This document shows positions 690 to 15,604 of a stretch of 64,000 nt of DNA, in pieces. The translations under genes were made by a program, and so were the position numbers. The notes beneath the pieces were generated by a model. It saw only the letters and a program-made list of their open reading frames with translations, did not search any database and had not been told where the DNA came from. The first letter of the stretch is position 1. Every line of letters starts with the position of its first letter. The DNA comes from Rickettsiales bacterium (GTDB taxonomy: Bacteria; Pseudomonadota; Alphaproteobacteria; Rs-D84): assembly GCA_031266915.1 (NCBI GenBank), contig JAISAB010000002.1, positions 76,738 through 140,737 of the forward strand. The letters are read 5' to 3'.

Positions 690-1913
690 ATGAGAAAGCA
701 ATTGTCTTTATTTATATGGGCCGTCACGGTTTTCGGAATGTCGCCAGTGTGGGCGGCGACGAACTCGGGCGCGTATGGCGCGTCCAGCGCGGACCTGACC
801 GGCGCGCCGGGAATACGCGAAAAAACAAGCGTCAATTATGAAAAGTATGAAACGCGGACATCGGCCAAGACATATGCGGCCAAGGACGGCAAGGACATTT
901 ATTACACCCAACCCGCGAAAAGAAGCGATTTGTACAAAGAATATTCGTCCAAATCGTCGTCTGCGCAATCGGCATCCGTACGCGCGAATCGCGCGGAAAC
1001 CGTCCGCAGCGAGGCCAAGCGCAAATACTATCTGGCGCATCCGTTCTTCCAGCCTTTGCAAGGCAAGTTCGGTTCCGTAACCGATTTGTCGTACGGGGCG
1101 GGTTCTTATGACTTTGCCATAAACCAGACGTATGTTCCGCCGTTGTCCAGTCCGTTAAGCGACACCGAGGCAAAATGGAAATCCACGCAGCTGTCGGTCA
1201 AAGAAGATTTCAGCTATGGCATAACCGATCGTTTGGCGGTGATGGGCATGCTCCGCTATGATTCGTCCAAGTACAAGATGGATTGGAAAAATCCGGCCAC
1301 ACCGGACGACACCATGTCGGATTCCGGCGTCAACCTGTACGGTTTGGGACTGCAGTGGCGCTTTACGGACAGCGCGGAATGGATTGCGACGCTGTCGGGA
1401 TATTATCAAAAGCATGTCGATGTGGCCAATATCGGCCTGGTGGACCTGAGGGGCGGATACAAGGTCGCGTCTTCCACCATATACGGATTGGCGCGCGGAT
1501 GGATAATCGGCTTTGATGGAAACGCGCACGGCAACGGGATTGAAAAAGGCGATGCCGGTTTGTTCATCGCTTATAAAATGGGCGAAAAAACGGCGACCTA
1601 TATCGAGGGCGGACTGGGAATCTTCAGCGTCCTGGACGAAGATTGGACTCTGAATTTCGAAGGCGTATTCGGAAATTATGACTGGCACAACCAGGCGTCG
1701 CTGAAGGCGGCGATTGGCTGGCAGCCCGGAAATTCGTTCGCCCTGAATCTGTACGGTACGGCCGCCGTTTACGACAGTGTGGACGGTCAAGACTTGGATG
1801 TCTATTGGAAAGAACCAGCCGCAAATATCAACAATTATACGCGCATCGGAACGGCCGCAATCGACAACTATTCAGAATGGACGGTCGGCCTGCAGGCAAC
1901 TTTGTATTTTTAA
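690..1913 (+). CDS. putative outer-membrane beta-barrel protein (signal peptide, C-terminal aromatic residue)
   Basis: 407-aa ORF. The signal peptide MRKQLSLFIWAVTVFGMSPVWAAT is followed by alternating hydrophobic/Gly-Tyr-rich strands, and the protein ends in ...ATLYF, a terminal Phe typical of OMPs. An RBS-like aaaggag lies upstream. Confidence 0.55.
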   Translation: MRKQLSLFIWAVTVFGMSPVWAATNSGAYGASSADLTGAPGIREKTSVNYEKYETRTSAKTYAAKDGKDIYYTQPAKRSDLYKEYSSKSSSAQSASVRANRAETVRSEAKRKYYLAHPFFQPLQGKFGSVTDLSYGAGSYDFAINQTYVPPLSSPLSDTEAKWKSTQLSVKEDFSYGITDRLAVMGMLRYDSSKYKMDWKNPATPDDTMSDSGVNLYGLGLQWRFTDSAEWIATLSGYYQKHVDVANIGLVDLRGGYKVASSTIYGLARGWIIGFDGNAHGNGIEKGDAGLFIAYKMGEKTATYIEGGLGIFSVLDEDWTLNFEGVFGNYDWHNQASLKAAIGWQPGNSFALNLYGTAAVYDSVDGQDLDVYWKEPAANINNYTRIGTAAIDNYSEWTVGLQATLYF

Positions 1914-1966
1914 TTCGCTTCGCCAATTAAAAATACAGTTAACAGATAACAGAGCACAGATAACAA

Positions 1967-2704
1967 ATGGTTTGCGGAACGTTTTTTTTGTCGAAAGTCG
2001 CAAAACAATTATCAATTGTTATCTGTTCATTGTTAATTGTTAATTATTCCAATGCGCAAAGCGCATTGGAATACGACATGGCCGACCCGATGTTTCTGAC
2101 GAAATCCGGCGACATTTGGTCCGATTCCAGCCTGCTGTTCAACAGCGATGTTCTGCGTCTGGCCCAAAAATTGTCGTACGGCGTGGGTGACAAGCTGTCG
2201 ATTGCGGCGGATATAAAATACCAGCAGGATTTTAACGGTCCCGAAGACGGCTTTTCCAATATCGGTGTCGGCGGCGTTTACAGATTATCGGACGTCGGTT
2301 CGAAAATCGTGACCGACGCGTTATTCGGGATAAATTTCGGCGGCGCAAAACGCGTCCGCGAGCCGGATTTCGCCGATACCATTTATCAAGCGGGCGTCCG
2401 GCTGGGGCGCCAGTGGTCCAGACTCACGCTGGCCGGAACAATCAAGACCAGCTGGATTTTTGACGAGAACCGCGGCATGGCATATATCGACGTCATCCCC
2501 GATGTCTACATCCGCCTGACCGACAGCTGGATGACCGGATTCGGGTTTGATATACGCAAATCGACCAATCCGAACTTTGACCGGCAATGGGCGAATTTCA
2601 AATTGGTCCGCCAATACGGCCGCACGCAGTACATGGGCCATGTGGATTATGAATTCGAAAATCGGAACTGGCAGTTCGGCGCAAAGGTCGATATATTGTT
2701 CTAG
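1967..2704 (+). CDS. putative outer-membrane beta-barrel protein (paralog-like of 690..1913)
   Basis: 245-aa ORF with a signal-like N-terminus (...SLLIVNYSNAQSA). It has a similar GxG/YxY-rich composition and ends in ...VDILF. The start codon is uncertain. Confidence 0.45.
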   Translation: MVCGTFFLSKVAKQLSIVICSLLIVNYSNAQSALEYDMADPMFLTKSGDIWSDSSLLFNSDVLRLAQKLSYGVGDKLSIAADIKYQQDFNGPEDGFSNIGVGGVYRLSDVGSKIVTDALFGINFGGAKRVREPDFADTIYQAGVRLGRQWSRLTLAGTIKTSWIFDENRGMAYIDVIPDVYIRLTDSWMTGFGFDIRKSTNPNFDRQWANFKLVRQYGRTQYMGHVDYEFENRNWQFGAKVDILF

Positions 2705-2807: not shown

Positions 2808-3046
2808 AAGCTCAACTGACATCGAATGTATCTTTTGTGGTGCCAAAAACTCAAGATTCGTCATACTGGCCACCGGGCCCCGCGAAAAACGACTGTTTTT
2901 CATGGGTGGTCTAAGCTGGTATGACGATGTGTGTTGTTCTCGGTTTTTTTGAAAAACAATAATCAATAGTTTTTCAAAATTCAATGCCGGTATGACGGCA
3001 AGAGAAAAGAATTTCGAAAAAGGTAAATTCGATGTCAGTTGAGCCT
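2808..3046. mobile_element. MITE-like palindromic element, copy A (28-bp terminal inverted repeats gctcaactgaca..gaatg / ..attc..tgtcagttgagc)
   Basis: The termini gctcaactgacatcgaatgtatctttt (2810-) and aaaaaggtaaattcgatgtcagttgagc (-3045) are inverted copies. The internal caagattcgtcatactggc and ccggtatgacggcaag are also inverted. The element is homologous to copies at 41195-41392 and 44649-44838 and to a truncated copy near 12570-12650. Confidence 0.6.
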
Positions 3047-3738
3047 TATAATTGCGGCGTTTTTCTTTTTAGCCCGACAGCCAGCACAATAGAATTCCCA
3101 ATACTTTTCATTTTTTTCTTTATTACAACTTTGTTTATACCATTCAAATAATTATTACTATTATAATGTAAATAGCTATTTACTCTATCCAGCAATTTAT
3201 TTGTCTTTGTTAGTGCACGATGTTCGTTATCAATCGGTGCTGGTTTATTCCGCCAAACATCAACCGGTGACAAATCCCCATTGTCCAAACGTTTTTTATA
3301 GGATTCAAGCTCAATTGTATAATCGGTAAGATTGGCGCCTTGTAATTCCGTATCATTCAGTTTGCTTAGGTATTTCAGCCTGTTCTCTATCATAAGAACT
3401 TCCAAAAGTTCAAACCATCGCTGTGTGGGAAACAAATCGTCTTCCATCAATTTTTTCTTTTTGGCATTTTTCTGCCGTTCTATCAAAATACCCCGTTTTT
3501 CTAATTCGGATTTTTTCAAAAGCCCCATTATTTCTATGCCATTTAAAATCGATGGCCAGTAATCTTTTCCAGAAGCCGGAATATTAAAGTCAGAACGTCT
3601 ATTTAGCTTATCGTTGCTTCTTTGGGAAATATGTGTAAAAAGCCGCTTTGCGTCAGTTATATAATCAACAGGTGTTCCCAATAATTCAATCTCGGATTGG
3701 CCAATAATTTCTTTTTTTGTTTTATTAGTTTTTGACAT
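3046..3738 (-). CDS. hypothetical protein on an AT-rich islet (Lys/Asn-rich)
   Basis: The probable start is MSKTNKTKKE..., 48 codons inside the longer ORF 3046..3882. The region is strongly AT-rich compared with neighbouring genes. The gene abuts the MITE terminus at 3045 and lies downstream of rarA on the same strand. Confidence 0.5.
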   Translation of the reverse strand: MSKTNKTKKEIIGQSEIELLGTPVDYITDAKRLFTHISQRSNDKLNRRSDFNIPASGKDYWPSILNGIEIMGLLKKSELEKRGILIERQKNAKKKKLMEDDLFPTQRWFELLEVLMIENRLKYLSKLNDTELQGANLTDYTIELESYKKRLDNGDLSPVDVWRNKPAPIDNEHRALTKTNKLLDRVNSYLHYNSNNYLNGINKVVIKKKMKSIGNSIVLAVGLKRKTPQL

Positions 3739-3797
3739 ATATAACCTCGTATCTATGTTGGGTCTATTATAGTTCAAAATCACGCAAAAAACAATGT

Positions 3798-5210
3798 TTA
3801 TTTCGCGCCGTTGGATGATATGATTTGGTCCCGAGCCTGGCCCGCCGTCTTCGGGGCCGTTTTCCAGCGCATGGAATCCCAATAATCCAGGCGCTTTTTT
3901 ATTTCGCGCTCGAATCCGATTTCTTTGGGATGATAGAAAGTCTGACGCCCCATTCCATCAGGGAAACAATTTTGGCCGGAAAATCCGGAATCTGTTTCCG
4001 GTTCATAAACATACCCGGAACCGTATCCCAAATTCTTCATCATTTTTGTCGGCGCGTTCAGGATATTCTTCGGCGGCATCAGGCTGCCGGTGGCACCGGC
4101 AGCCGCATAGGCCGATTTTTGCGCTTTGTAATTTCCGGTGCTTTTCGGCGCGGTCCCAAGATAGATGACCAATTGGGTCAGTGCCAAGTCGCCCTCAGGC
4201 GACCCCATTCTTTCGTAAACCTGCCATGCGGCCAGCGCAATCTGCATGGCGCTGGGGTCGGCCAGGCCAATATCCTCCATCGCGAACCGCGTTAGGCGGC
4301 GGAACAGATACATCGGGTCCTGGCCGGACGTCATCATGCGCGCGGTCCAGTAAAGCGCGGCGTCGGTGTCGCTGGCGCGCAGGGACTTGTGAACGGCCGA
4401 AATCAGGTTGTAATGTTCGTCGCCGCTTTTGTCGGATAGCGGCGCGCGCTTTTGAATGGCGTTGTCCAATTCGTCCGGCGACAAATCGTTCTTGAAATTG
4501 GCCGACATCAGATATTCGATGGTGTTCAGCAGGAACCGGGCGTCGCCGTCGGCCATCCGGACCAAGTGAATTCGCGCCTCGGGCGTCAGCGGCAAATGTC
4601 CAACGTTCGAAGCGCAAGATTCAATTTTTGTTTTCTTTTTACCTGCGCTCTGCGCCTTGCGCTCTACGCTCTTTTCGCCTTGCTGCGCGGTGAAATAACG
4701 TTCCGCGCGTTCCATCAGATTCAGCAAATCTTCGGCGGACAGCGGGGTCAATACCCCGATATGACAGCGCGACAGCAACGCGTTGTTCAGATTAAAGCTG
4801 GGGTTTTCGGTGGTCGCGCCGATAAAGACGACCGTTCCGTCCTCTAGATACGGCAGCAGGGTGTCCTGCTGCGTCTTGTTGAATCTGTGGATTTCGTCGA
4901 TAAACAACAGCGTGTTTCGGCCGATTTGACGCCGCATCTTGGCGGCCTCTACCGCCTTTTTAATATCGGCGGTGCCGCTGAAAACCGCGCTCATCGGGAC
5001 GAAGTCCATGTCGACGGAATTCGCCAATGCGCGCGCAATCGTGGTCTTGCCGCATCCCGGCGGCCCCCACAGCAGCAGGTTCGACAGGCGTTTGTTGTCC
5101 ACCATGTGGCGCACCAGGCCGTTTTCCCCCAGCAGGGCGGCTTGGCCCACGATTTCGTCGATGGTGTTCGGACGCATGATGTCCGCAAGCGGTCGGGTCG
5201 ATGGTTCCAT
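3798..5210 (-). CDS. rarA: replication-associated recombination protein A (AAA+ ATPase RarA/MgsA)
   Basis: The N-terminus PLADIMRPNTIDEIVGQAALLGENG, Walker A GPPGCGKTT and the LLFIDEIHRFNK motif are present. The C-terminal MgsA helical domain (ALYWTARMMTSGQDP, YVYEPE) is present. There is an extra ~25-aa Lys-rich segment, discussed in findings. Confidence 0.9.
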   Translation of the reverse strand: MEPSTRPLADIMRPNTIDEIVGQAALLGENGLVRHMVDNKRLSNLLLWGPPGCGKTTIARALANSVDMDFVPMSAVFSGTADIKKAVEAAKMRRQIGRNTLLFIDEIHRFNKTQQDTLLPYLEDGTVVFIGATTENPSFNLNNALLSRCHIGVLTPLSAEDLLNLMERAERYFTAQQGEKSVERKAQSAGKKKTKIESCASNVGHLPLTPEARIHLVRMADGDARFLLNTIEYLMSANFKNDLSPDELDNAIQKRAPLSDKSGDEHYNLISAVHKSLRASDTDAALYWTARMMTSGQDPMYLFRRLTRFAMEDIGLADPSAMQIALAAWQVYERMGSPEGDLALTQLVIYLGTAPKSTGNYKAQKSAYAAAGATGSLMPPKNILNAPTKMMKNLGYGSGYVYEPETDSGFSGQNCFPDGMGRQTFYHPKEIGFEREIKKRLDYWDSMRWKTAPKTAGQARDQIISSNGAK

Positions 5211-5281
5211 TGTTTTACTTTGATTTTACTTGGGCTTTATTTGTGATATAATGACTGTAATATAAAAAACAAGAAAAGAAA

Positions 5282-5662
5282 ATGAAAAATACGAATCATG
5301 AATTACTGGCCGCGACCCGCGAATTTACCCTGGCGGTGGCCAACCTGGCCGCGGCCGCGATGTCCGGCAATCCGGCGATGTCGATGGCGGATGCTGTGCG
5401 GCAGGCGACCGATTCCCTGCGCCGCGCGTCGGTGACGCCCGCCCGGATAAAAGAATCGGTCAGGCCCGATAAGATTCAGTGCTTGGAGGACGAAACCTGG
5501 CACATCATGCTGCGTCGGTATATAAAGCGAAAATTCAACTTGACGCCCGAACAGTATCGCAAGAAATGGGGCCTGGCGGACGATTATCCTTTCGTTGCGC
5601 CGAACTATTCGAAGATGCGTTCGAAAATCGCCAAGAAAACAGGACTTGGAAAGGGGAAATGA
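5282..5662 (+). CDS. mucR: MucR/Ros family transcriptional regulator
   Basis: The C-terminal ...YIKRKFNLTPEQYRKKWGLADDYPFVAPNYSKMRSKIAKK matches the Ros/MucR DNA-binding domain signature (HGLTPeeYRekWgLp.DYPmVAPnY). The zinc ligands are partly degenerate. This family is specific to Alphaproteobacteria. Confidence 0.8.
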   Translation: MKNTNHELLAATREFTLAVANLAAAAMSGNPAMSMADAVRQATDSLRRASVTPARIKESVRPDKIQCLEDETWHIMLRRYIKRKFNLTPEQYRKKWGLADDYPFVAPNYSKMRSKIAKKTGLGKGK

Positions 5663-5665
5663 GCC

Positions 5666-7555
5666 ATGATTAAGAAAACCGTTAGGAAAGCCAGGAATTA
5701 TTTCGACCAATCGAAGACGGTCAAAAAGCTGGGCGCGGGATTTGAAAAAATTCCATCCGGTCTGGGCCGTGCGCGCAGAAAACTGGCGCGCGCGGACGCG
5801 AAAACCTGGTACGGAAAAACGGGAAAATGGACGGGCGCCGGTTTGCTGCTGGCGCTGCAGGCCGCGGCAAAAGTCGTCAAAATTATGGGCGTGGACAATC
5901 TGGTGCTGCGCGCGGTCGAGATTGAGTTCGCGACAATCAAACCCGGGAAAAATAAAAAAGGCAACGACAAGAAGTTCGCCACGTTTATAAAAAAACATCC
6001 GTGGATTCCGGCCTATCTGACAAACTATATGATTATGGCGTCATTTTTGTTCGGCGCCAACGTCGGCGGCATACGCGACGGCGCCGTCGACGGGATAAAA
6101 TCCGGCGTGGAAAGCCTGAAAGACTATTTTTCAAAGGACAAGGAAAGCGGAGAAAAAATAGACATTTCAACCATGAAAATGACCGGCGCCCAGTGGTGCA
6201 AAACGGATTTTGTGAACGCGCTGTGCGTGGCGATTCCGCTGGTGTTCGAAGAATGCTATACGACCGCAAAGCTGACATCTGAACGCGGCGGCGTATATAA
6301 CATCGGATATTGCATGACCCGTATGCCCGCGAATAAAAGCAAACCGTACGGCAAATGGCGCAAGGTCAGAAAAGGGGATACCTGTACCGAGGAACAAGCG
6401 GCCCTGTGGGCGGCCGTTTACAGTCAGAAAAATATTTTCCCGACTATCAGCGAGAAACTGACCGTCGAAGTGTCCTGCGGAATGATTTTGGCGCTGGCGG
6501 ACTTGTCTTATAATGCCGGCGCATTGGGTGTCATGATTGCGCGTTTGAACGACGGCTGGACCGAAGAACGTGTCCTGAACAGGATGTTGGAATACCGATA
6601 TGCGAAAATAAAAAACGAAAAAACAGGCAAAATGGTTCCCATAATTTTGGACGGTCTGATAGTCCGCCGCTGGTGGGATTATGCGGCCGGCCATAATAAA
6701 TTGGATTACGAAAAACTGTTGGACTGCAATCTGACGGCCGTATCGCAAATAGGCAGCGGCAACCTTTATTCGGATAAAGCAAAATACAAACCAATCATAA
6801 CCGATAAAAAAGTCGAACAGGTTTTAACCGCAAGCGTCCCGGGCAAACCAAGCGTCCGCGATATATTCAGCCGAAGCGAAACCGGCAGAAAATACATCGC
6901 GTCGATAGAAAATGCCGATGTCAGCATAGCAAAGACAGCCGAACCGGTTGAGGCAATAGAACAGGATTCGGAAAGCTATCTGGTCAATAATATCGCGTTC
7001 GAGGCGCAGACGGCTTTTGACAAAGGGCACTATAAAATCGCTGCGGACAAATTCAGGAAAATGATTGAACTGGTCCCGGACGCGTATGATTCTTACAATG
7101 ATTTGATATTCACGTTATATAAACTTGGAAATTACGACGAAGGCTTGAAATACGCCAGAATACTGATAGACCTGGGCCACGCCAATGATGTCAGCGAGGA
7201 TAAAATGTTCGGCTCGGCTTATTTTAACGCCGGTCTTTGCCGCGAAGCCAAGGGCGAATTGGAAAAGGCGAGGGCGAATTACGAGACCGCATCGCTTAGA
7301 ATGCCGAACAATATATTCGTAAAAAATGCCTTGGACAGAATTGATAAAAAGATAAAAGAACAAAACGATAAGAAACGTAAAAGCGGCAACAGCGGCAAGA
7401 AAAAAAGCGCTGGGGCGACAACGTCGGCAAAGTCTAAATTCAATCGTGCGTCTTCTAAAATAAAGAACGTGGTCGCAGAGGTCAAACCTGAAAAGGGCAG
7501 CACGTTCGATGCGACGTATTTTTTCATAAACCCCTACGATAATGGCATGGCGTGA
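5666..7555 (+). CDS. membrane-anchored GH24 (phage-type) lysozyme-like domain protein with C-terminal TPR repeats and Lys-rich tail
   Basis: The segment FEECYTTAKLTSERGGVYNIGYCMT...GDTCTEEQAALW...ILALADLSYNAGALG...GLIVRRWWDYAAG aligns motif by motif with T4/lambda lysozyme (catalytic E..D/T-EG-Y.IG.GH, TEEQA, the helix-loop FNvG, GL..RR..E). There is a hydrophobic N-proximal segment (WTGAGLLLALQAAAKVVKIMG). The C-terminal region contains TPR-like repeats (YNDLIFTLYKLGNYDEGLKYA... ELEKARANYETA). Confidence 0.65.
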   Translation: MIKKTVRKARNYFDQSKTVKKLGAGFEKIPSGLGRARRKLARADAKTWYGKTGKWTGAGLLLALQAAAKVVKIMGVDNLVLRAVEIEFATIKPGKNKKGNDKKFATFIKKHPWIPAYLTNYMIMASFLFGANVGGIRDGAVDGIKSGVESLKDYFSKDKESGEKIDISTMKMTGAQWCKTDFVNALCVAIPLVFEECYTTAKLTSERGGVYNIGYCMTRMPANKSKPYGKWRKVRKGDTCTEEQAALWAAVYSQKNIFPTISEKLTVEVSCGMILALADLSYNAGALGVMIARLNDGWTEERVLNRMLEYRYAKIKNEKTGKMVPIILDGLIVRRWWDYAAGHNKLDYEKLLDCNLTAVSQIGSGNLYSDKAKYKPIITDKKVEQVLTASVPGKPSVRDIFSRSETGRKYIASIENADVSIAKTAEPVEAIEQDSESYLVNNIAFEAQTAFDKGHYKIAADKFRKMIELVPDAYDSYNDLIFTLYKLGNYDEGLKYARILIDLGHANDVSEDKMFGSAYFNAGLCREAKGELEKARANYETASLRMPNNIFVKNALDRIDKKIKEQNDKKRKSGNSGKKKSAGATTSAKSKFNRASSKIKNVVAEVKPEKGSTFDATYFFINPYDNGMA

Positions 7556-7995
7556 TGAAAGTCGTAGCAAATTATAATGACAACCGCTGGCGGAAATACA
7601 AAATCGACTTCGCGCGCATCGCGCGCATGGCGGCCAGTTCTATGCGCAAAGATTCCGAGGTTTCGATTATTCTGACCAACGACGTCGAGGTTCGCGCCCT
7701 GAACAAGCGATACCGCGGGATTAACAAGGCGACAAATGTGCTGTCTTTTGAAACGGGCGACGACCAATTGTTGGGCGATATATTTATCTCGTTCGACACG
7801 GTTTCGCGTGAGGCCATGGGCGACGGCAAGACATTCCAAGACCACGCCGCACATATGGTCGTGCACGGCATGTTGCATTTGCTGGGGTATGACCATATGA
7901 ATGATTCTGATGCGGACACGATGGAAAATCTGGAGATTAAAATATTAAGGAAACTGGGCGTGAGTAATCCGTATGAACAAATAAAAGGAACGAGG
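7552..7995 (+). CDS. ybeY: endoribonuclease YbeY domain; no in-frame stop, so it reads through into lnt as a single 704-codon ORF 7552..9666
   Basis: The metal-binding motif HMVVHGMLHLLGYDH and the surrounding YbeY consensus are present. The expected C-terminus (~148 aa) coincides with the start of a palindromic repeat element (7986-8114), and no stop codon precedes lnt. Confidence 0.85.
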
Positions 7996-8114
7996 AACGG
8001 GAACAAGGAACCCGCCTTCGCCAAGGCTACGGCGGGCAGGCGGGAACGTGGAATGGGGCATAATACAAAGTTTCCAGTTCCTTGTTCCTGTTCCTTATTT
8101 CTGTTCCTTATTCC
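7986..8114. repeat. palindromic repeat element (RPE-like), copy 1, at the ybeY/lnt junction, in frame
   Basis: The sequence ggaacgggaacaaggaacccgccttcgccaaggctacggcgggcaggcgggaac ... gtttccagttccttgttcctgttcc has inverted arms and an inner hairpin cccgcc..ggcggg. It is about 85 percent identical to the copy at 8213-8316. Confidence 0.6.
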
Positions 8115-9666
8115 TATTTTATGCGGCGCAGTCGCTGCGCTGGGCTATGCGCCGTTTAATTTATGGTGGGCGACGTTACTCGGAATCGGCGGCATGTATT
8201 ATCTGGTGGTAAAAGGAACAGGAACAAGGAACCCGCCTTCGCCGAGGCTACGGCGGGCAGGCAGGAACTCGGCACAGTGCAAAGTTTCCCATTCCTTGTT
8301 CCCGTTCCTGTTCCCCTACCTGTTCGGCGCGGCATATGCCGTCGGGATGTTCTGGTGGGTCGTCAATTCTATATTCGTCGTCCCGGAATTGGCCGCGCAA
8401 TTCGCGATATTCGCTGCGCCGGCAATTCTGGGTATCGGGCTATTCGGCGGGCTGATATTCGAGATTCCATTCGTGGTAATTCGCTGTATGCGGCCAAATC
8501 ATGCGTATAGGGCGATTTTGTTCGCGTTGTTATGGACAGTTATCCTATGGCTGCGCGAATGGCTGTTGACAGGATTTCCATGGAATCCGGTCGCGAATAT
8601 TTCCATGCCGTTTCCAATCCTTTCCAATTCCATGTCGCTGTGGGGGGCGATGGGGCTGACGTTTGTCATCATCGGCCTGGTTGCGTCCATCGTAGAAATT
8701 ATCCGCAACGTAAAATCCAAGGGCGCATACGTTCAGTTGATTATTTTTTCGGTATTAATGTCTGTCGGAATATTTTTCGGTTATAAAAATATCCAGTCAT
8801 CTAAATTCGAAACTGATGAAAAAACACCAGTTATCCGAATAGTTCAGCCCGCGAGTTCTGCCGAAGACAAGGCCACCCATTCGCGCGAGCAGGCCATCGC
8901 CAACGCCGAGAAAAATATTCAGAATCTGATTCGTCTGGCAACTGAAAATCCGATTAAGCCGGACTTGTACGTTTTTCCGGAAACGGCGTATCCGTACATG
9001 GTTGTCGACGGCTATTTTCCTTTGGCGCAGGTATTGAAGACGCCGACGATTATGGGCGCGATGTCGTACGACGACGGCCGTTTTTACAATTCTTTGCTGA
9101 TTGCAAATCCAGCCGGCCGGATTGAAAAGATATACAGCAAGTCGCATCTGGTGCCGTTCGGCGAATACCGCCCGCTGGGCGATATTATTCCAACGCCCGG
9201 CCAGCTGACGCCTGGCGCCGGTCCTGAGATTCTGCAAGTCGCCGCTGGGGACAAGGCCGCGATTGATTTTGCGCCGGCGATTTGTTACGAGATTATTTTT
9301 TCTGATTCATTGGTGCCGGGCGGCGCGCCGGTCGAACCGGACGTCATCGTCAACATTACGAACGATACATGGTTCGGCAAGACGCCGGGCAGCTATCAGC
9401 ACTTGGACATGGTCCGCCGCTATGCGATTGAATCGGGACTGCCGGTCGTTCGTGCGAACTATTCGGGAATCAGCGCGTTCATCGATTCCGACGGCCGGGT
9501 TGCATCACGGTTGCCAATCGGCGTCGCGGGATATTTGGACGGTCGGATCGGCGGCGGCCATATGACGATTTATCGCCGGATAGGGCGCGATTTGTGGATG
9601 GTTATAATTTTGCTGTTTTCAGCAACCGCCGCAGGATGTATATCCTTATTTCAGAAGAGAGATTAG
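8053..9666 (+). CDS. lnt: apolipoprotein N-acyltransferase
   Basis: The N-terminal TM helices are present. The motif WLLTGFPWNP is present. The C-terminal CN-hydrolase domain carries the catalytic triad context (FPETAYP...; HLVPFGEYRP; ICYEIIF). The candidate start ATG at 8053 lies inside the repeat element and is in frame with ybeY. The true start and any fusion are unresolved. Confidence 0.85.
   Translation: MGHNTKFPVPCSCSLFLFLIPILCGAVAALGYAPFNLWWATLLGIGGMYYLVVKGTGTRNPPSPRLRRAGRNSAQCKVSHSLFPFLFPYLFGAAYAVGMFWWVVNSIFVVPELAAQFAIFAAPAILGIGLFGGLIFEIPFVVIRCMRPNHAYRAILFALLWTVILWLREWLLTGFPWNPVANISMPFPILSNSMSLWGAMGLTFVIIGLVASIVEIIRNVKSKGAYVQLIIFSVLMSVGIFFGYKNIQSSKFETDEKTPVIRIVQPASSAEDKATHSREQAIANAEKNIQNLIRLATENPIKPDLYVFPETAYPYMVVDGYFPLAQVLKTPTIMGAMSYDDGRFYNSLLIANPAGRIEKIYSKSHLVPFGEYRPLGDIIPTPGQLTPGAGPEILQVAAGDKAAIDFAPAICYEIIFSDSLVPGGAPVEPDVIVNITNDTWFGKTPGSYQHLDMVRRYAIESGLPVVRANYSGISAFIDSDGRVASRLPIGVAGYLDGRIGGGHMTIYRRIGRDLWMVIILLFSATAAGCISLFQKRD
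8213..8316. repeat. palindromic repeat element (RPE-like), copy 2, inserted in frame within lnt between TM1 and TM2
   Basis: The sequence is aaaaggaacaggaacaaggaacccgccttcgccgaggctacggcgggcaggcaggaac...gtttcccattccttgttcccgttcctgttcc. It encodes an extra ~30 aa (TRNPPSPRLRRAGRNSAQCKVSHS) that is absent from E. coli Lnt at this position. Confidence 0.6.
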
Positions 9667-9817: not shown

Positions 9818-10252
9818 TCACATTTTTCCCACAATCAAGCAATCGGTCAGCGCATGCCACGGGTCGCTGTATTTGCGCAGGGGGCGCAGCGTCGTATTGT
9901 CCATCATAAAGCATGTGCCGAACGCGTCGAACGCGAACCAGAACAAATCGTTGCGGCCAAAGACGGTCTTGCCGCGCATCTGCGGCAAAGCGGAAATATC
10001 ATTGTTGACCTGCAGAATGCCCGGGACCGGGAATTTCTTGGTGACCCGGTTTTCCGTCGGTCCGAATACATAGGCGTCGCCCAGAACGATGCCGCCGGTC
10101 GTCTTGTACAAATCTATCATGAACATCGGCAGCACGGCCGCGCGCACGGCCTGCAGGCCGTTGCTGGCCAAGGTAATCGCAATATCCGACGCCGCCGGCG
10201 CGAAATGCGCCCCGTTTGATTTCATGGAAGATAAAAAGTTATTCATAGTCAT
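9818..10252 (-). CDS. hypothetical protein
   Basis: 144-aa ORF immediately upstream of the RHH gene on the same strand. It has only a weak resemblance to the SspB-like PFDA..F.DP region, so no confident family. Confidence 0.45.
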   Translation of the reverse strand: MTMNNFLSSMKSNGAHFAPAASDIAITLASNGLQAVRAAVLPMFMIDLYKTTGGIVLGDAYVFGPTENRVTKKFPVPGILQVNNDISALPQMRGKTVFGRNDLFWFAFDAFGTCFMMDNTTLRPLRKYSDPWHALTDCLIVGKM

Positions 10253-10364
10253 ATTAGTAACTAGTGTATAGTGTTTAGTGCTTAGTTAATAGTGCATAGT
10301 GATTTAATTATCAGGTTATAACACTATAAACTATACACTAATCACTATGCACTACTAACTTGTT

Positions 10365-10877
10365 TTATTCCATCCCTCGTTCGGCGGCGATTTGCGCCGC
10401 CATCTGCGATAATCGGTCCTCGGTCGCGTTGCCGCCGTCGCCCCCGCCGGCGGTGTGCGCCGGAACATATACCTTTTTCGCGGGACTTGGCAGCCAGATT
10501 GTCGGATTGCCGGCCTGTTCGATTATAAATCTGTCCATGTTGTGGCTGTGCGGAAACGTGCGGCACAGAAACATGTTCTCGGGTTCCAACCGGCCGCCCC
10601 AAAGCAGCGGCACGCGCAGGCGCAAGGATAAATTGTCGGGCATCCTGCGTCCCGTTATCAGACCCATGAATTCGTCCTGGGATAAATTCATAAAGGCCAA
10701 ATCTTCCACAGAATCAGTCAGCGAGCGCATGAATTCCCGGCGCAGATTCTTGTACCGGACGAACCAGTCAGGGGCCACGGAGGACACCGCCGCAGCAAAT
10801 TCCATTACCGGCAAATCATCCATGAAAAGGTCGGCAAGGCGTTTTTCCGCGGCTGCCTTTCTTATCTGCGCATTCAT
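10365..10877 (-). CDS. hypothetical protein
   Basis: 170-aa ORF with coding-like composition, followed downstream (10262-10360) by a tagt-rich palindromic hairpin. No family recognised. Confidence 0.5.
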   Translation of the reverse strand: MNAQIRKAAAEKRLADLFMDDLPVMEFAAAVSSVAPDWFVRYKNLRREFMRSLTDSVEDLAFMNLSQDEFMGLITGRRMPDNLSLRLRVPLLWGGRLEPENMFLCRTFPHSHNMDRFIIEQAGNPTIWLPSPAKKVYVPAHTAGGGDGGNATEDRLSQMAAQIAAERGME

Positions 10878-10896
10878 TCGTCAGCACCCAAAGTCG

Positions 10897-11769
10897 TTAC
10901 GATTTGTTAAAATAATCCGCCACCGTGTCCACGTATTCGGAATAGGCGTCGAAATCCCCCTTTTCGCTGTCCGTCAATTCGCGATTGCGATGGGCGTCCA
11001 TATAATCGCGCAGCGCGTCGACCGAATCGAACCGTTCGATGTTGTCCGCGTTCGCGGCGTCGCCCGTTTTCGGATTGATGACGAACGCACGGATGTCAAT
11101 CCTGATGTCTTCCAGCGTTTCGGTGAATATTGTATTCAGTTTGTCGGCCGCGGCGGCCAACATTTCGGGCGCGACCCCGACAGCGCCCATCCACAGCGTT
11201 TCATCAGCGCCGACTGCGAACAGGGCCGGCCGCATCCCGCCGATGCGCGGCGGTTTCTTGACCGTGTATCCTGCGGACTTGAATATCTGTTCGATGTCCG
11301 CGAAATTGTCAGGCGTGTTTTCTGGCGCAAATACAGGTGCGGGCGCGGCCATCGGCGCAAAGCTTGGCGCGTCTGTGCCGCGCGGCGCGGCGCCATGACC
11401 GCCCGCCGCCGGCAATTTCAGTCGTGGCGGCCGCGCGTCCGACGCGCTATTCGTTGTCGCCGTGGTTGCGGACGGCTTGGTAGCCGGTTCGACGTTCTCC
11501 GCCGGGCCGGGTTTAAATTTGATTTTTCTGAACCTGGGGCGCGCAATCAGGTACAGGCCCGCCACCATCGCCGCGACAATCACAATCAGCGATATATAGA
11601 ACGACGGCCGGACGGCGGTCCCGGACGCCTGCAGATGGCCCAGATAGCGCCAATGCGCGCCGGAAAACAGATTGAATCCGAACTTGGCGTCGAACCAAAA
11701 GCACGCGCCCAGAGTCGATGCCAGCAGCCACAACAGCCCCAGCAAAAAATGGTCGATTTGTTTTTTCAT
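10897..11769 (-). CDS. hypothetical membrane protein with Pro/Ala-rich linker
   Basis: 290 aa with two N-terminal TM helices (LLGLLWLLASTLGACFWF; ISLIVIVAAMVAGLYLIA). It has a Pro/Ala/Thr-rich low-complexity linker and an acidic C-terminal domain. Confidence 0.5.
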   Translation of the reverse strand: MKKQIDHFLLGLLWLLASTLGACFWFDAKFGFNLFSGAHWRYLGHLQASGTAVRPSFYISLIVIVAAMVAGLYLIARPRFRKIKFKPGPAENVEPATKPSATTATTNSASDARPPRLKLPAAGGHGAAPRGTDAPSFAPMAAPAPVFAPENTPDNFADIEQIFKSAGYTVKKPPRIGGMRPALFAVGADETLWMGAVGVAPEMLAAAADKLNTIFTETLEDIRIDIRAFVINPKTGDAANADNIERFDSVDALRDYMDAHRNRELTDSEKGDFDAYSEYVDTVADYFNKS

Positions 11770-12717: not shown

Positions 12718-15576
12718 ATGAGTATATTTAAAAATATTTTTCTGGGTTCGCTGCTGTTGGTCGCGTGCGCTGGCGGCGCATTTGCCATAACTGGGGAGGG
12801 ATTGGTCGAAAATTCGAACGATTCCAGTTCCATGGGGTACGGCGGATATAATAATATAACCATCATGTCCGACGCGTCGCTGATTGTCGACGCCACCAGC
12901 GGCGGATATATAAACGTTACGAACACTTTTTCAGTCGCGAAAAATTTTCTGCACAACGGCAAGGACATTTCAGTATTGACGGGCGACCCAACTTTTTATA
13001 AAAAAGGCGGTTTCGCGTTCACAGGCAGCGATTCCATCGTCACGGCGAAAAATCTGGTGGTCGGCGGTGACTTTATCAACGGCGACGGCGCGTCTGCTTT
13101 GAATTTGGCGCTGAATGTCGATGCAATCAATGTGACTGGAACATTTTATGCCAATCAGAACAGCACGATTGTCGTAACGCCGAATGATTGGTCGGCCAAT
13201 CCGTCCTTGACGGCCGGCGATATTAATGTTGCCGGCAGCGTGTATATGGGCGATTCCGGCACGGGCACCGTTAAAATTGCGTCCGCTGCGGATGATAATG
13301 TTTATAAAATCTCCACGGCCGGAACTTTGGATGTCGACGGCAATATCCAGGCCCAGAAAGGCCGGCTGGTCATCAACGGAGATACGGTCAAAGTGGCAGG
13401 GAATGTAGAGGGCCAGGTGGTAATCGAAAAAGGCGTGGTCGAAGTAGCGGGGAATGTCTTGGGCAAGGTGGATTTCGACGTCGGCAATCTGAACATCGGA
13501 AATCTGACCGTCGATTCGAATGCGTCGCTGGATTGGAAAGACAGATTCACTGATCAAGGAACGGGCGATTTGCTGGCGGACGGAACATTAAATTCGACCG
13601 GCGATATATTAATCGGCGGCACGGTGAACGGCAAGCTGAATATCAAGGGCGACGCCGACATGTGGATTGGCGAAGATTTGCTGGGCTATCTGGGCGTAGA
13701 TGTGGATAATTTGTACGTTTTAGGAAAAATCGAAGGCTCTGGAAACATCAAGGCCGACACAGTGAATGTCGGCGGCAACCTGGCGGGCGGCAGCGGCGGT
13801 CTGGTCGTCGACGCGGGAAAGGTTAACGTCGACGGCGATTTGTCGGGCAATTTGAACATTGACGCCGACGATATTCTGGTCAACCACGATGTATTGGGCG
13901 GAACGAAATTTAGGCCGAATCTGCCGGGCGGCGGCAATACCGGCGACGCCGAGACGCAATTCCACATAAATCCAAACGGCGGCGCGCCCGGCAGTATGTT
14001 CAAGCAGACGGATTTGACGATAGCCGGGACGTACAACTTTGACGACGATTCGTATCTGCAGCTGGTTCTGAATTCCAAAACGGCGAACAGCGACGGAACG
14101 GCCGGGTACAACCCGAATACTGACGATGCGCTGATAACGGTGGGCGTTTTCGATGCGCGCGGCGTCTCGTCGTCGCCGAATTTCCTGAATATGGATTTGC
14201 CGCCCAATATCGAGATACTGGTCGATAATCTGAAAGAAACGATTCCCAAAATCAGGCTGATAAACGTGACCAGCGGAACGATAGACATGGGCGGATTGGA
14301 CTTCGCGGGCCTATGGTTCTATTGGGACAAAGATAACGACGGCGCCGCCGATTTTCGCCTGTTCCAGGAAGCAAGATTGGTCGCGGACGGCAACAATATC
14401 TATGCGATGGTCGCGATGATGAATTCTATCCAGCGTCTGACGCGCGACGCGGCGGGCGCCGTCAGCAACGATATTCAGGCCGCGGGCGCTGTCGACGATT
14501 TGATTCTGCAAAGGCTGCATGGCTATTCGGAATATACCACGGACGATTTAACCAATTATTACACGTCGGTGATGCGCCTGTTGTTTCCGGATTCGGACGT
14601 TTATTACGATTTGATGCTGAACGGCGGCGCTTATCGCGACGCTATGGATGTGATGGTTTCAGAAAATCCGGACTATGCGCTGGGATTTGTGCGCGGCATC
14701 GGACTGGACAGCGTTTCAACAATCAGAAACAAGCTGGAGCTGTCAGGCCGAACGGCCCGCAACGCTGTGTCCGACCAGCTGATGGAAGACTATTCCTGGA
14801 AGCGATATTATGACAAAAGCGTCGCGTGGGTCCGCGTGGGATTCGGGGATGCGCTTATGTCCTTTGACTTCGGCGCTGACACTAGAGTTAACAAAAAGTT
14901 CATCGCAGGATTCAACTTCGGATATAACTTGCTTGATTTCGGCGATTTGGACGGCCGGACGATAAATCTGGGGTTATATGGCGCGTACGACCTGAATGAT
15001 TGGGCGCGCCTGCACGCGAATCTGAATCTGGCGCTCCATTCCGTCGACGCCAAGACGAACAGCATGATTGTCAGGGAAATGAAAACCCATCTGCGCACGG
15101 CGGACACGGTTTTGGATGTCGGCGTCCTGCATAAAATCTTAGACCAGTATGTCACGGGACGCGGATATGTGGCGTTCGGACTGCTGGGGGGATATGAATT
15201 CACGCAAAAGTACAAGGGCAGCGACTTTATGGATGTCGCCGTCGGCAATCGCGTGATTTTGGCGCCGGGATACGAAATCTCGATGGGCAAGGATATATGG
15301 CTATCGGTCGGCGGCTTTGTGCGTCCGTCGTTGAAATTTGGAATCGAATACGATTTGCTGGACGGCGGCAGTCGCAATGTGGACTTCAAATTTTCAGAGG
15401 TCAGCGCTTATCGCACCTGGCAGGCGTCCGATTCCGACAGTTTGTGGCTGCGTTACGGTGCGCAGATTGATTTCTCGTTCATCGTCGGAACGAATATTTC
15501 TGTCGGATACGAAGTGCTGAAAAACGGCGATTTCAAAGCTAATCAATTCAAACTGAACGGGGTGTACAGGTTCTAG
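12718..15576 (+). CDS. autotransporter (type Va) outer-membrane protein with beta-helical Gly/Asn/Val-rich passenger and C-terminal beta-barrel
   Basis: 952 aa with signal peptide MSIFKNIFLGSLLLVACAGGAFA. The passenger has repetitive VNVGGNLAGG/GNVEGQVVIEKG motifs. The C-terminal ~280 aa show alternating amphipathic strands (GFNFGYNLLDFG..., LGLYGAYDLNDWARLHANLNLAL) and end in ...GVYRF. Confidence 0.75.
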   Translation: MSIFKNIFLGSLLLVACAGGAFAITGEGLVENSNDSSSMGYGGYNNITIMSDASLIVDATSGGYINVTNTFSVAKNFLHNGKDISVLTGDPTFYKKGGFAFTGSDSIVTAKNLVVGGDFINGDGASALNLALNVDAINVTGTFYANQNSTIVVTPNDWSANPSLTAGDINVAGSVYMGDSGTGTVKIASAADDNVYKISTAGTLDVDGNIQAQKGRLVINGDTVKVAGNVEGQVVIEKGVVEVAGNVLGKVDFDVGNLNIGNLTVDSNASLDWKDRFTDQGTGDLLADGTLNSTGDILIGGTVNGKLNIKGDADMWIGEDLLGYLGVDVDNLYVLGKIEGSGNIKADTVNVGGNLAGGSGGLVVDAGKVNVDGDLSGNLNIDADDILVNHDVLGGTKFRPNLPGGGNTGDAETQFHINPNGGAPGSMFKQTDLTIAGTYNFDDDSYLQLVLNSKTANSDGTAGYNPNTDDALITVGVFDARGVSSSPNFLNMDLPPNIEILVDNLKETIPKIRLINVTSGTIDMGGLDFAGLWFYWDKDNDGAADFRLFQEARLVADGNNIYAMVAMMNSIQRLTRDAAGAVSNDIQAAGAVDDLILQRLHGYSEYTTDDLTNYYTSVMRLLFPDSDVYYDLMLNGGAYRDAMDVMVSENPDYALGFVRGIGLDSVSTIRNKLELSGRTARNAVSDQLMEDYSWKRYYDKSVAWVRVGFGDALMSFDFGADTRVNKKFIAGFNFGYNLLDFGDLDGRTINLGLYGAYDLNDWARLHANLNLALHSVDAKTNSMIVREMKTHLRTADTVLDVGVLHKILDQYVTGRGYVAFGLLGGYEFTQKYKGSDFMDVAVGNRVILAPGYEISMGKDIWLSVGGFVRPSLKFGIEYDLLDGGSRNVDFKFSEVSAYRTWQASDSDSLWLRYGAQIDFSFIVGTNISVGYEVLKNGDFKANQFKLNGVYRF

Positions 15577-15604
15577 TCAACAAATAACAAAAAACAGATA
15601 ACAA

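What the first reader, a model, noticed from the sequence alone, without database searches (positions are those of the whole stretch)
5666..7555. Phage-type (GH24) lysozyme domain fused to TPR repeats, encoded between mucR and ybeY-lnt
The central ~150 aa align motif by motif with T4 and lambda lysozymes, including the catalytic Glu context (FEEC…TSERGG…YNIGYCM), TEEQA, the helix-loop motif and GL..RR. The protein has an N-proximal hydrophobic anchor, C-terminal TPR repeats and a poly-Lys tail. It sits in a conserved housekeeping neighbourhood directly downstream of the global regulator MucR, not in a prophage. It may be a domesticated endolysin used for peptidoglycan remodelling or for attacking other cells.
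Basis: partly seen in the sequence, partly recalled or inferred. Interest (0 to 1): 0.55.

Follow-up and report, generated by a model that had tools for sequence, protein, structure and literature searches.

The report
Domesticated phage-type lysozyme fused to TPR
A gut alphaproteobacterium carries, in a fixed chromosomal slot next to the regulator MucR, a probably membrane-anchored protein built from a phage-type lysozyme fold plus TPR repeats that keeps the catalytic glutamate but has replaced the other two catalytic residues, so it looks like a tamed cell-wall enzyme rather than a phage lysin.

Summary
The ORF at 5666-7555 (+, 629 aa) is real and does contain a GH24 (T4/P22-type) lysozyme fold. 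Evidence: Pfam PF00959 above its cut-off, hhalign probability 99.7% against canonical lysozymes, and an AlphaFold model (pLDDT 89) that matches phage endolysins and SpmX. After the fold come a conserved ~85-aa extension, three TPR repeats and a Lys-rich tail.

It is not prophage DNA. The order rarA(-) | mucR > X > ybeY-lnt recurs in five divergent termite-gut and rumen alphaproteobacterial lineages. Start and stop codons are close enough for translational coupling.

The canonical Glu/Asp/Thr triad is not kept. Glu195 is invariant, but Thr204 sits where Asp20 should be and Asn212 where Thr26 should be, in all 8 full-length members. The more distant orthologues in the same slot also lack the Asp.

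Two family members replace the N-terminal anchor with a Tat signal plus a C-terminal anchor. That places the lysozyme/TPR part in the periplasm.

The family is tiny: 6 clusters among 1.84 billion representative proteins, and 2 of 185,579 species genomes. It evolves much faster than its neighbours.

Best reading: a domesticated, attenuated or chemically altered peptidoglycan-binding/cleaving envelope protein, parallel to SpmX of Caulobacter. It is a new variant of a known kind, of moderate interest.

The parts
3798..5210 (-). rarA/mgsA (AAA+ ATPase), the divergent upstream neighbour. It is adjacent to the slot in every locus with a readable upstream flank.
   Evidence: Pfam MgsA_C at 1.8e-57 and AAA. 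Same position in L001, L003, L004, L007, L012 and L033.
5225..5252 (+). Sigma-70-like promoter candidate upstream of mucR (TTTACT-16-TATAAT, with TG).
   Evidence: Consensus scan, 10 of 12 matches. This is a pattern match only.
5282..5662 (+). mucR/ros zinc-finger regulator (126 aa). Its stop codon lies 3 nt before the ATG of the lysozyme-TPR gene.
   Evidence: Pfam ROS_MUCR at 5.7e-26; junction sequence.
5666..7555 (+). Lysozyme-TPR gene ('X'), 629 aa.
5666..6001 (+). N-terminal region, residues 1-112. It is strongly basic (net +21) and includes an amphipathic/hydrophobic helix at 56-89. Inferred to be cytoplasmic.
   Evidence: Charge count. Conserved in P0002, P0007, P0003 and P0008, and recognisably in P0112 and P0076.
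6002..6070 (+). Moderately hydrophobic segment, residues 113-135 (WIPAYLTNYMIMASFLFGANVGG). Inferred single membrane anchor.
   Evidence: Hydropathy 1.1-1.6 across the orthologues, and this is the conserved hydrophobic block. Membrane insertion was not tested.
6173..6685 (+). GH24 (T4/P22-type) lysozyme-fold domain, residues about 170-340.
6248..6250 (+). Glu195 codon (GAA), equivalent to the catalytic Glu11 of T4 lysozyme. Invariant.
6275..6277 (+). Thr204 codon (ACA), which occupies the Asp20 position. Invariant Thr in all 8 full-length family members.
6299..6301 (+). Asn212 codon (AAC), which occupies the Thr26 position. Invariant Asn in all 8 full-length family members.
6686..6940 (+). Conserved extension of about 85 aa, residues 341-425. 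It belongs to the same confidently modelled unit as the lysozyme domain (pLDDT about 88-97). No solved or viral structure matched beyond about 160-180 aligned residues, so it has no structural match.
   Evidence: Invariant Y348, L351, C354, Y368, D370, S396, F401, S404, G407, Y410 and I414. Model. Fold matches limited to about 160-180 columns. Shared with P0012, P0016, P0033, P0112 and P0076.
6971..7390 (+). Three TPR repeats (helices at 436-545) plus a capping helix (550-574).
   Evidence: Pfam TPR_2 at 1.7e-8 and other TPR models. Matches to consensus TPR proteins in the PDB. Helices with pLDDT 80-90.
7334..7501 (+). Lys-rich, low-complexity tail, residues 557-612 (15 Lys in 56 residues). 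Its first residues overlap the capping helix.
7502..7528 (+). C-terminal motif TFDATYFFI. It is conserved in P0002 and P0003 and is degenerate in P0009.
   Evidence: Function unknown.
7552..9666 (+). ybeY-lnt fusion ORF (704 aa). Its GTG at 7552 or ATG at 7555 overlaps the TGA of X at 7553-7555.
   Evidence: Pfam YbeY at 2.8e-34, LNT_N and CN_hydrolase; junction sequence.

Best explanation
X is a vertically inherited, domesticated GH24-fold protein of a small clade of gut (termite and ruminant) Alphaproteobacteria. It is not a phage lysin.

Inferred topology: a basic N-terminal region of about 110 residues stays in the cytoplasm. One weakly hydrophobic helix (residues 113-135) anchors the protein in the inner membrane. 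The lysozyme fold, its 85-aa extension, the three TPR repeats and the Lys-rich tail lie in the periplasm.

Inferred action: the lysozyme cleft still binds the peptidoglycan glycan strand. The C-lobe motifs and the catalytic Glu195 are kept. The general-base Asp and the water-holding Thr have been replaced by an invariant Thr204 and an invariant Asn212. Hydrolysis is therefore either strongly attenuated or replaced by water-independent, lytic-transglycosylase-like chemistry that needs only the Glu. The TPR module docks an unknown periplasmic partner, so wall binding or local wall cleavage is tied to a protein complex at the inner membrane.

The gene is most likely co-transcribed and translationally coupled with mucR upstream and ybeY-lnt downstream.

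Shown: fold, residue substitutions, synteny, rarity, fast divergence. Inferred: topology, peptidoglycan binding, attenuated or altered catalysis, partner docking.
For: Fold and homology:
- PF00959 above its cut-off.
- Family profile against PDB GH24 endolysins, E 2e-8 to 3e-6.
- hhalign probability 99.7%.
- AF2 model with pLDDT 89.4.
- Foldseek hits to AbLys1, PHAb10, 6et6, LysF1, SpmX-Mur 6h9d, R21 and P22.

Active site:
- Glu is present in 91 of 91 aligned relatives.
- The Asp20 position is D or C in 75 of about 88 relatives, but Thr in all 8 family members.
- The Thr26 position is T in 75 relatives, but Asn in all 8 family members.
- The nearly invariant GH24 columns Y, G and G-L-x-x-R are kept.

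Domestication:
- The order rarA(-) | mucR > X > ybeY-lnt is the same in the window, L001, L003, L012/13 and L033/34. L004 has rarA | mucR > X | trmB, and L007 has rarA | X | trmB.
- No phage genes flank it.
- No member was found in 2.9 million viral contigs; the best viral hits are at most about 41% identical over short stretches of the lysozyme core.
- Against 50,697 phage records, the only hit is 37.5% identity over 41% of the query.

Periplasmic location:
- P0005 and P0006 replace the N-terminal part with twin-arginine signals (SRRKFL...VFA-A and GRRDFI...AFA-A) plus a C-terminal hydrophobic helix and basic tail.
- A tatA gene lies on the P0006 contig.
- In the window protein, residues 1-112 have net charge +21 and residues 136-200 have net charge -3.

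Operon: 3-nt and overlapping junctions, a promoter-like site upstream of mucR, and no plus-strand terminator-like site at either junction.

Precedent: the SpmX muramidase keeps Glu11, carries D20L/R and a variable residue 26, is attenuated but still active, and is a core gene derived from a phage lysin (bioRxiv 10.1101/418723).

The more distant same-slot orthologues P0112 and P0076 also lack the Asp.
Against: - No activity, localisation or expression data exist.
- The anchor helix is only weakly hydrophobic (Kyte-Doolittle about 1.1). A second hydrophobic stretch lies at 58-76. If both span the membrane, the lysozyme domain would be cytoplasmic.
- An acidic residue 2-3 positions after Thr204 (E206 here, D or E in the other members; equivalent to Glu22 of T4 lysozyme) is conserved. 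It might act as a displaced general base, so full activity is not excluded.
- Asn at the Thr26 position also occurs in one small phage-like lysozyme that keeps the Asp (P0061).
- Lysozyme-like endolysins without a catalytic Asp can be active (title of PMC5674055).
- Adjacency to mucR and ybeY-lnt may be mere inherited gene order. One lineage lacks mucR, and at least three (P0005, P0006, P0008) have trmB rather than ybeY-lnt next to X.
Confidence: 0.6

Rival explanations
1. It is a conventional, fully active housekeeping muramidase (autolysin). The Thr/Asn substitutions are harmless, and the enzyme cuts peptidoglycan hydrolytically for growth, division or insertion of envelope machines, like SagA of Brucella.
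For: The catalytic Glu and the cleft-forming motifs are conserved. A conserved acidic residue sits close to the Asp position. More distant relatives with the same TM-GH24-extension(-TPR) layout keep the canonical E/D(C)/T and are chromosomal (P0012/P0098, P0016, P0103). SagA is a precedent for a chromosomal T4-like muramidase in Alphaproteobacteria (PMC8334348).
Against: Asp20 is reported as very sensitive to substitution, with only D20C/A keeping activity (10.1101/418723). Here both Asp20 and Thr26 are replaced in every member, and the Asp is also missing in the remote same-slot orthologues. The gene diverges far faster than its neighbours, and in some orthologues (P0007, P0112) the Pfam lysozyme signal is lost. 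That fits poorly with a strictly constrained enzyme.
Confidence: 0.2
2. It is a catalytically dead scaffold. The lysozyme fold serves only as a peptidoglycan- or protein-binding module that positions a TPR hub, in the manner of a polar or division landmark (functionally like SpmX or PodJ).
For: Two of three triad residues are lost. There is a TPR module and a long cytoplasmic N-terminal region. Divergence is fast. SpmX provides a precedent.
Against: Glu195 is invariant across all members and remote orthologues, and the replacement residues Thr204 and Asn212 are themselves invariant rather than drifting. In SpmX, residue 26 is unconstrained. This points to continued selection on the cleft chemistry.
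Confidence: 0.25
3. It is an endolysin of a cryptic prophage or a signal-anchor-release (SAR) type lysin left over from a lysis cassette.
For: The nearest non-family relatives are phage endolysins. It has a weakly hydrophobic, Gly/Ala-rich anchor reminiscent of SAR domains.
Against: No phage genes lie within +/-10 kb in any locus. The chromosomal slot is the same in lineages whose X proteins share only 26-38% identity. It is absent from viral contig and phage collections. The anchor lies 112 residues from the N-terminus, and the E-x8-D/C-x5-T motif of SAR endolysins is not met.
Confidence: 0.03
4. It is an antibacterial weapon (a bacteriocin or secreted effector) that degrades the walls of competitors.
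For: Lysozyme-fold toxins exist; pesticin appears as a weak fold match. The fast evolution would suit an arms race.
Against: Every full-length member has a membrane anchor at one end or the other. No secretion-system, receptor-binding or Pfam-recognisable immunity gene lies in the conserved flanks, although several neighbours are uncharacterised. The catalytic residues are weakened rather than preserved.
Confidence: 0.05

Closest known systems
SpmX muramidase domain (Caulobacterales; PDB 6H9D)
   Same: A GH24 fold co-opted into a vertically inherited alphaproteobacterial core gene. The catalytic Glu is kept and the Asp20 and Thr26 positions are replaced. It is membrane-anchored. It appears as a fold match at E 1.7e-4.
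   Different: SpmX has the muramidase at the N-terminus, then a Pro-rich linker and two C-terminal TM helices, and has no TPR. Its Asp20 position is L or R and position 26 is unconstrained, whereas here T and N are invariant. Sequence identity is only 19%, and 6H9D is not a sequence-level hit. This is an independent event in a different lineage.
Phage GH24 endolysins of the T4/P22/P21 type (AbLys1 8APP, PHAb10 9KBQ, 6ET6, LysF1 7M5I, P22 2ANV, R21 3HDE)
   Same: Same fold and the same core motifs: fEG, TIGYG-like hairpin, GDTCTEEQA, YN.G and GL..RR.
   Different: Those are proteins of about 150-190 aa with the E/D(C)/T triad, encoded in lysis cassettes. X is 629 aa with an anchor, an extension and TPR repeats, has E/T/N, and sits in a housekeeping slot.
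Uncharacterised chromosomal TM-GH24-extension(-TPR) proteins of gut bacteria (P0012/P0098 = MBO4682957.1; P0016; P0033/P0103)
   Same: N-terminal anchor, GH24 domain and the same extension of about 85 aa. P0012 also has TPR repeats and a C-terminal anchor. All are chromosomal.
   Different: They keep the canonical E/D or C/T triad and lie in other genomic contexts. They match the family profile only at E 1e-9 to 1e-5.
SagA (Brucella abortus) / TtsA (Salmonella Typhi) autolysins
   Same: Chromosomal T4-lysozyme-like muramidases of Gram-negative bacteria that serve an envelope function (PMC8334348).
   Different: They retain Glu/Asp/Thr, are small soluble proteins with a helical peptidoglycan-binding domain, and have no TPR. 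They are not among the sequence or fold matches listed.
PodJ-type bitopic polarity factors of Alphaproteobacteria (from my own knowledge, not tested here)
   Same: Overall logic: a cytoplasmic N-terminal region, one TM helix, and a periplasmic part that combines three TPR repeats with a peptidoglycan-binding module.
   Different: PodJ uses a PG_binding_1 domain rather than a lysozyme fold, and its cytoplasmic part is a long coiled coil. No homology was detected or sought.

Membership tests
GH24 / Pfam PF00959 Phage_lysozyme | Significant match to the family HMM | tested here: met
   E 2.1e-6, 28.5 bits against a gathering cut-off of 22.3, residues 200-335. hhalign against canonical members: probability 99.7%, E 9.5e-26.
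GH24 / Pfam PF00959 Phage_lysozyme | T4-lysozyme two-lobe fold, with the Glu at the end of helix 1 and a beta-hairpin carrying the other catalytic positions | tested here: met
   AF2 model with pLDDT 89.4. Helix 181-194 is followed by E195, and strands 198-204 and 210-214 carry T204 and N212. Foldseek TM-scores (normalised to the target) are 0.6-0.78 against GH24 structures.
GH24 / Pfam PF00959 Phage_lysozyme | Catalytic general acid Glu (T4L Glu11) | tested here: met
   E195 is invariant in the family and present in 91 of 91 aligned relatives.
GH24 / Pfam PF00959 Phage_lysozyme | Asp (or Cys) nine residues after the Glu (T4L Asp20) | tested here: not met
   T204 aligns with the Asp in the HMMER, MAFFT and hhalign alignments. 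It is Thr in all 8 members.
GH24 / Pfam PF00959 Phage_lysozyme | Thr in the T-I-G-x-G hairpin (T4L Thr26) | tested here: not met
   N212 (NIGY) aligns with the Thr. It is Asn in all 8 members.
GH24 / Pfam PF00959 Phage_lysozyme | Muramidase activity on peptidoglycan | not testable with these tools
   Needs purified protein and sacculi.
Lambda-type lytic transglycosylase (GH104) | Specific sequence or fold similarity to lambda R | tested here: not met
   No lambda lysozyme chain appears among the PDB sequence hits at E<=10 or among the 50 Foldseek matches listed.
SAR endolysins (P1 Lyz, R21) | Extreme N-terminal signal-anchor-release helix, E-x8-D/C-x5-T motif, lysis-cassette context | tested here: not met
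   The anchor is at residues 113-135, not at the N-terminus. The motif is E-x8-T-x7-N here. There is no phage context.
SpmX | N-terminal muramidase, Pro-rich intermediate domain, two C-terminal TM helices; restricted to Caulobacterales | tested here: not met
   The domain order is different and TPR repeats are present. There is only a fold-level match to 6H9D, at 19% identity.
TPR repeat proteins | Matches to TPR HMMs and paired antiparallel helices | tested here: met
   TPR_2 at E 1.7e-8, above its cut-off. Consensus TPR proteins in the PDB match at E 1e-10. Six paired helices at 436-545.
Tat-exported, tail-anchored proteins (applies to paralogous members P0005 and P0006 only) | S/T-R-R-x-F-L motif, hydrophobic region, A-x-A cleavage site; C-terminal TM helix with a basic tail | tested here: inconclusive
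   The motifs were read by eye in the alignment (SRRKFL...VFA|A and GRRDFI...AFA|A). C-terminal hydrophobic windows score 1.8-2.0. No dedicated signal-peptide predictor was available.

The most novel reading that the evidence does not exclude
This is a second, independent case, after SpmX, of a phage-type lysozyme fixed as a syntenic core gene and 'detoxified' by loss of the Asp general base. Here, however, the new residues (Thr and Asn) are under strict constraint. That would mean the fold has been converted to a new chemistry, for example a Glu-only lytic transglycosylase. The enzyme would be anchored in the inner membrane, wired to a TPR partner and co-expressed with the global regulator MucR, and it would evolve rapidly as an envelope determinant of gut Alphaproteobacteria.
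Probability: 0.3. Interest if true: 0.6.

Novelty: new variant of a known kind. Interest (0 to 1): 0.42.

Why it matters
Few cases are documented in which a lethal phage lysin became a harmless housekeeping gene; SpmX is the textbook one. This locus would add an independent case with a different architecture (anchor, GH24, extension, TPR) and a different, strictly conserved remodelling of the catalytic hairpin (Asp to Thr, Thr to Asn). A graded series of relatives is available: canonical-triad paralogues, same-slot orthologues that have lost only the Asp, and orthologues so diverged that the Pfam lysozyme signal is gone. That series makes the path of 'detoxification' reconstructable, and T204D/N212T reversion would test it directly. 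It also flags an unannotated envelope protein ('hypothetical' or 'TPR repeat protein' in the databases) in uncultured termite and rumen Alphaproteobacteria. The limits are that the family is very small, the organisms are uncultured, and nothing here shows what the protein does in the cell.

Tried and rejected
- The full-length AF2 model built from the 7-sequence alignment was poor (pLDDT 52). I replaced it with a domain model built on a 90-sequence alignment.
- PHROGs gave no lysozyme family, and NCBIfam gave only weak TPR matches.
- The first word-indexed homologue search found only 6 relatives. The exhaustive profile search confirmed that this is real rarity and not a limit of sensitivity.
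- Prophage origin was rejected on synteny and on the absence of phage genes.
- Lambda-lysozyme kinship was rejected.
- SpmX membership was rejected on architecture and sequence.
- A functional link to ybeY-lnt was considered but not adopted. P0005, P0006 and P0008 have trmB next to X instead.
- A literature search for GH24 plus TPR in Alphaproteobacteria found nothing specific.
- dN/dS was not attempted because synonymous sites are saturated at 38-68% protein identity. Relative protein divergence against the neighbours was used instead.
Full report
**1.

The window has a single long ORF at 5666-7555 on the + strand (629 aa, ATG start). Its product is identical to an NCBI MAG protein, LBJ73_00900 ('Rickettsiales bacterium'). 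NCBI calls it hypothetical and JGI calls it a TPR repeat protein.

Pfam finds two things in it:
- PF00959 Phage_lysozyme at residues 200-335, E 2.1e-6, 28.5 bits against a curated cut-off of 22.3.
- Several TPR models at about residues 445-550, with TPR_2 at E 1.7e-8.

- a ROS/MucR regulator at 5282-5662;
- one ORF at 7552-9666 that fuses YbeY with apolipoprotein N-acyltransferase (LNT_N plus CN_hydrolase);
- rarA/mgsA on the other strand at 3798-5210.

**2. It is a GH24 fold**

- A profile of the conserved region of the family (alignment A2) hits solved GH24 endolysins 9KBQ, 9KBS, 6ET6 and 8APP at E 2e-8 to 3e-6.
- Profile-profile comparison with 23 canonical small lysozymes gives probability 99.7% and E 9.5e-26 over 131 columns.
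- A full-length AlphaFold model from seven sequences was poor (pLDDT 52). A model of residues 160-445 from a 90-sequence alignment was confident (pLDDT 89.4, pTM 0.86).
- Foldseek matched that model to AbLys1, PHAb10, the A. baumannii prophage muramidase, LysF1, the SpmX muramidase domain, R21, P22 lysozyme and P1 Lyz. It also matched phage endolysins in BFVD.
- All these matches cover only about 160-180 residues. Residues about 341-425 are a conserved, confidently modelled extension with no structural match.
- No lambda-type lysozyme appears in any list, so the kinship is with the T4/P22/P21 type.

**3. The catalytic triad is not conserved**

Three independent alignments agree (HMMER against 8APP; MAFFT of about 90 relatives; hhalign):

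| T4 lysozyme residue | Residue here | In the 8 full-length family members | In other GH24 relatives retrieved |
|---|---|---|---|
| Glu11 | Glu195 | invariant Glu | Glu in 91 of 91 aligned |
| Asp20 | Thr204 | Thr in all 8 | D or C in 75 of about 88 |
| Thr26 | Asn212 | Asn in all 8 | T in 75 |

An acidic residue two to three positions after Thr204 is conserved (E206 here). It corresponds to Glu22 of T4 lysozyme. A displaced base therefore cannot be excluded.

According to the SpmX study, Asp20 tolerates only Cys or Ala. D20L leaves attenuated activity, and loss of the Glu abolishes activity (10.1101/418723).

There is a GH24 HMM hit, but the triad is E/T/N, not E/D/T.

**4. It is a fixed chromosomal gene, not phage DNA**

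The gene order around X in the lineages found is as follows.

| Locus (X protein) | Gene order |
|---|---|
| window | rarA(-), mucR, X, ybeY-lnt |
| L001 (P0007, 38% identical) | same |
| L003 (P0002, 68%) | same |
| L012/L013 (P0112, rumen MAG) | same |
| L033/L034 (P0076) | same |
| L004-6 (P0006) | rarA, mucR, X, trmB(-) |
| L007-9 (P0005) | rarA, X, trmB(-); no mucR |

P0112 has no Pfam hit at all. It is still homologous to the family from the N-terminal region through the extension (hhalign probability 95.6%, E 1.2e-8).

No phage genes flank any copy. No family member was found in 2.9 million viral contigs; those hits share only the lysozyme core, at about 28-41% identity. Among 50,697 phage genomes there is one weak hit, at 37.5% identity over 41% of the query.

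In the window, the mucR stop lies 3 nt before the ATG of X, with an AAGGGGA ribosome-binding site. The TGA of X overlaps the start of ybeY-lnt. A promoter-like site lies upstream of mucR, and no plus-strand terminator-like site lies at either junction. An operon is therefore likely but not shown.

**5. The family is tiny and fast-evolving**

- An exhaustive HMMER search of 1.84 billion representative proteins finds six clusters below E 1e-30. The scores then drop sharply to generic lysozymes at E 1e-11 or worse.
- Only 2 of 185,579 GTDB species genomes carry a member.
- X diverges much faster than its neighbours:

| Window compared with | rarA | mucR | ybeY-lnt | X |
|---|---|---|---|---|
| L001 | 81% | 77% | 58% | 38% |
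| L012 | 76% | 66% | 49% | about 26% over 106 residues |

**6. Wider relatives**

The same anchor-GH24-extension layout occurs in other chromosomal proteins that keep the canonical triad.
- P0012/P0098 (MBO4682957.1, a rumen alphaproteobacterial MAG) also has TPR repeats and a C-terminal anchor. It sits between an HU/acetyl-CoA carboxylase pair and rfbC.
- P0016 and P0103 sit next to LysR regulators.

The same-slot orthologues P0112 and P0076 have the Glu and the Thr but no Asp. The simplest history (an inference) is:
- an old chromosomal, membrane-anchored GH24 family, ultimately of phage type;
- loss of the Asp in the mucR-linked lineage;
- then fixation of Thr204 and Asn212 in the termite-gut subgroup.

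**7. Topology (inferred)**

- Residues 1-112 carry 28 K+R against 7 D+E. Residues 136-200 are slightly acidic.
- The hydrophobic block conserved across orthologues is 113-135. It is only moderately hydrophobic.
- The stretch at 58-76 contains two Lys and is not hydrophobic in P0003, P0008 or P0112, so I read it as an amphipathic helix.
- P0005 and P0006 replace the whole N-terminal part with twin-arginine signal peptides placed directly before the lysozyme domain. They also add a C-terminal hydrophobic helix with a basic tail. A tatA gene is on the same contig.
- The topology inferred for both versions is therefore a periplasmic lysozyme-TPR module tethered to the inner membrane.
- The organism makes peptidoglycan. 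The window encodes a PBP transpeptidase and a LysM-M23 peptidase.

**8. Most likely mechanism**

X is a tethered periplasmic protein that binds glycan strands through a remodelled GH24 cleft. It either cleaves them slowly or by Glu-only (lytic-transglycosylase-like) chemistry. It recruits a partner through three TPR repeats.

Probabilities, as I judge them:

| Claim | Probability |
|---|---|
| GH24 fold | about 0.97 |
| Domesticated, non-phage gene | about 0.9 |
| Periplasmic and membrane-tethered | about 0.8 |
| Attenuated or altered catalysis rather than full muramidase activity | about 0.6-0.7 |
| A specific role in wall remodelling or an envelope complex | about 0.5 |

The rivals are a fully active autolysin, a dead scaffold, a cryptic endolysin and an antibacterial weapon. 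They are weighed in the rival-explanations section.

**9. Comparison with what is known, and novelty**

The closest concept is SpmX, a phage GH24 lysin co-opted and 'detoxified' into a core gene of Caulobacterales. X is not a member of that family. The domain order differs, X has TPR repeats, identity to 6H9D is 19%, and the replacement residues here are constrained rather than free.

X belongs to GH24 by fold and by HMM, but it fails two of the three catalytic-residue criteria.

I rate it a new variant of a known kind, with interest about 0.4. It is a clean, testable second example of lysin domestication, but it comes from uncultured organisms and there is no functional evidence.

Noticed in passing
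window 7972-8116 and 8208-8315: Two copies of a palindromic, MITE- or RPE-like element of about 110-145 nt. The terminal inverted repeats are AAGGAACAGGAACAAGGAAC and GTTCCTTGTTCCTGTTCCTT, and the GC-rich core is CCCGCCTTCGCCRAGGCTACGGCGGGC. Both copies sit in frame inside the ybeY-lnt ORF and add about 35-58 residues compared with orthologues (704 aa against 646-670 aa). No other copies occur in the window.
   Followed up: partly
window 7552-9666; L001 11776-13788; L003 7336-9276; L012 9403-11403; L033 7390-9384: The rRNA-maturation nuclease YbeY and apolipoprotein N-acyltransferase Lnt are fused into one ORF in all five lineages. This is an unusual fusion of two unrelated housekeeping functions and may be a marker of this clade.
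   Followed up: partly
window 41424-42971 (-): A 515-aa ORF with a CBM_14 peritrophin-A chitin-binding domain (E 4.6e-7). This domain is typical of insects, and here it is in a bacterium that appears to come from a termite gut.
   Followed up: no
window 3001-4000: A low-GC stretch (0.35-0.40 against about 0.5-0.57 around it) with an orphan 278-aa ORF at 3046-3882 (-) that has no Pfam match. The corresponding gap between the 240-aa ORF and rarA in L003 holds no called gene, so this may be a recent insertion.
   Followed up: no
window 690-2704, 9818-11769, 12718-16261: Seven neighbouring ORFs, including a 952-aa one at 12718-15576 (L003 has a 953-aa, Pfam-less gene at the corresponding position), have no Pfam family at all. 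This lineage is rich in uncharacterised conserved genes.
   Followed up: no
window 7502-7528 (residues 613-621 of X): A C-terminal motif, TFDAT.FF(I/L), is conserved in the window protein, P0002 and P0003, and is degenerate in P0009. It is absent from P0004, P0007, P0008 and the Tat-type members. It could be a docking peptide, possibly for the protein's own TPR groove; this is speculation.
   Followed up: no
L004 6269-8050 (P0006); L007 5242-7065 (P0005): Two members swapped the N-terminal anchor for a twin-arginine signal plus a C-terminal tail anchor. This is a change of membrane-tethering mode within one orthologous group.
   Followed up: partly
L118 10001-10858 (P0016); L119 10001-11026 (P0103): TM-anchored GH24 proteins with the same C-terminal extension and a canonical E/C/T triad sit next to divergent LysR regulators in chromosomal contexts of other gut bacteria. 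This hints at a wider, unstudied family of membrane-bound housekeeping lysozymes.
   Followed up: partly
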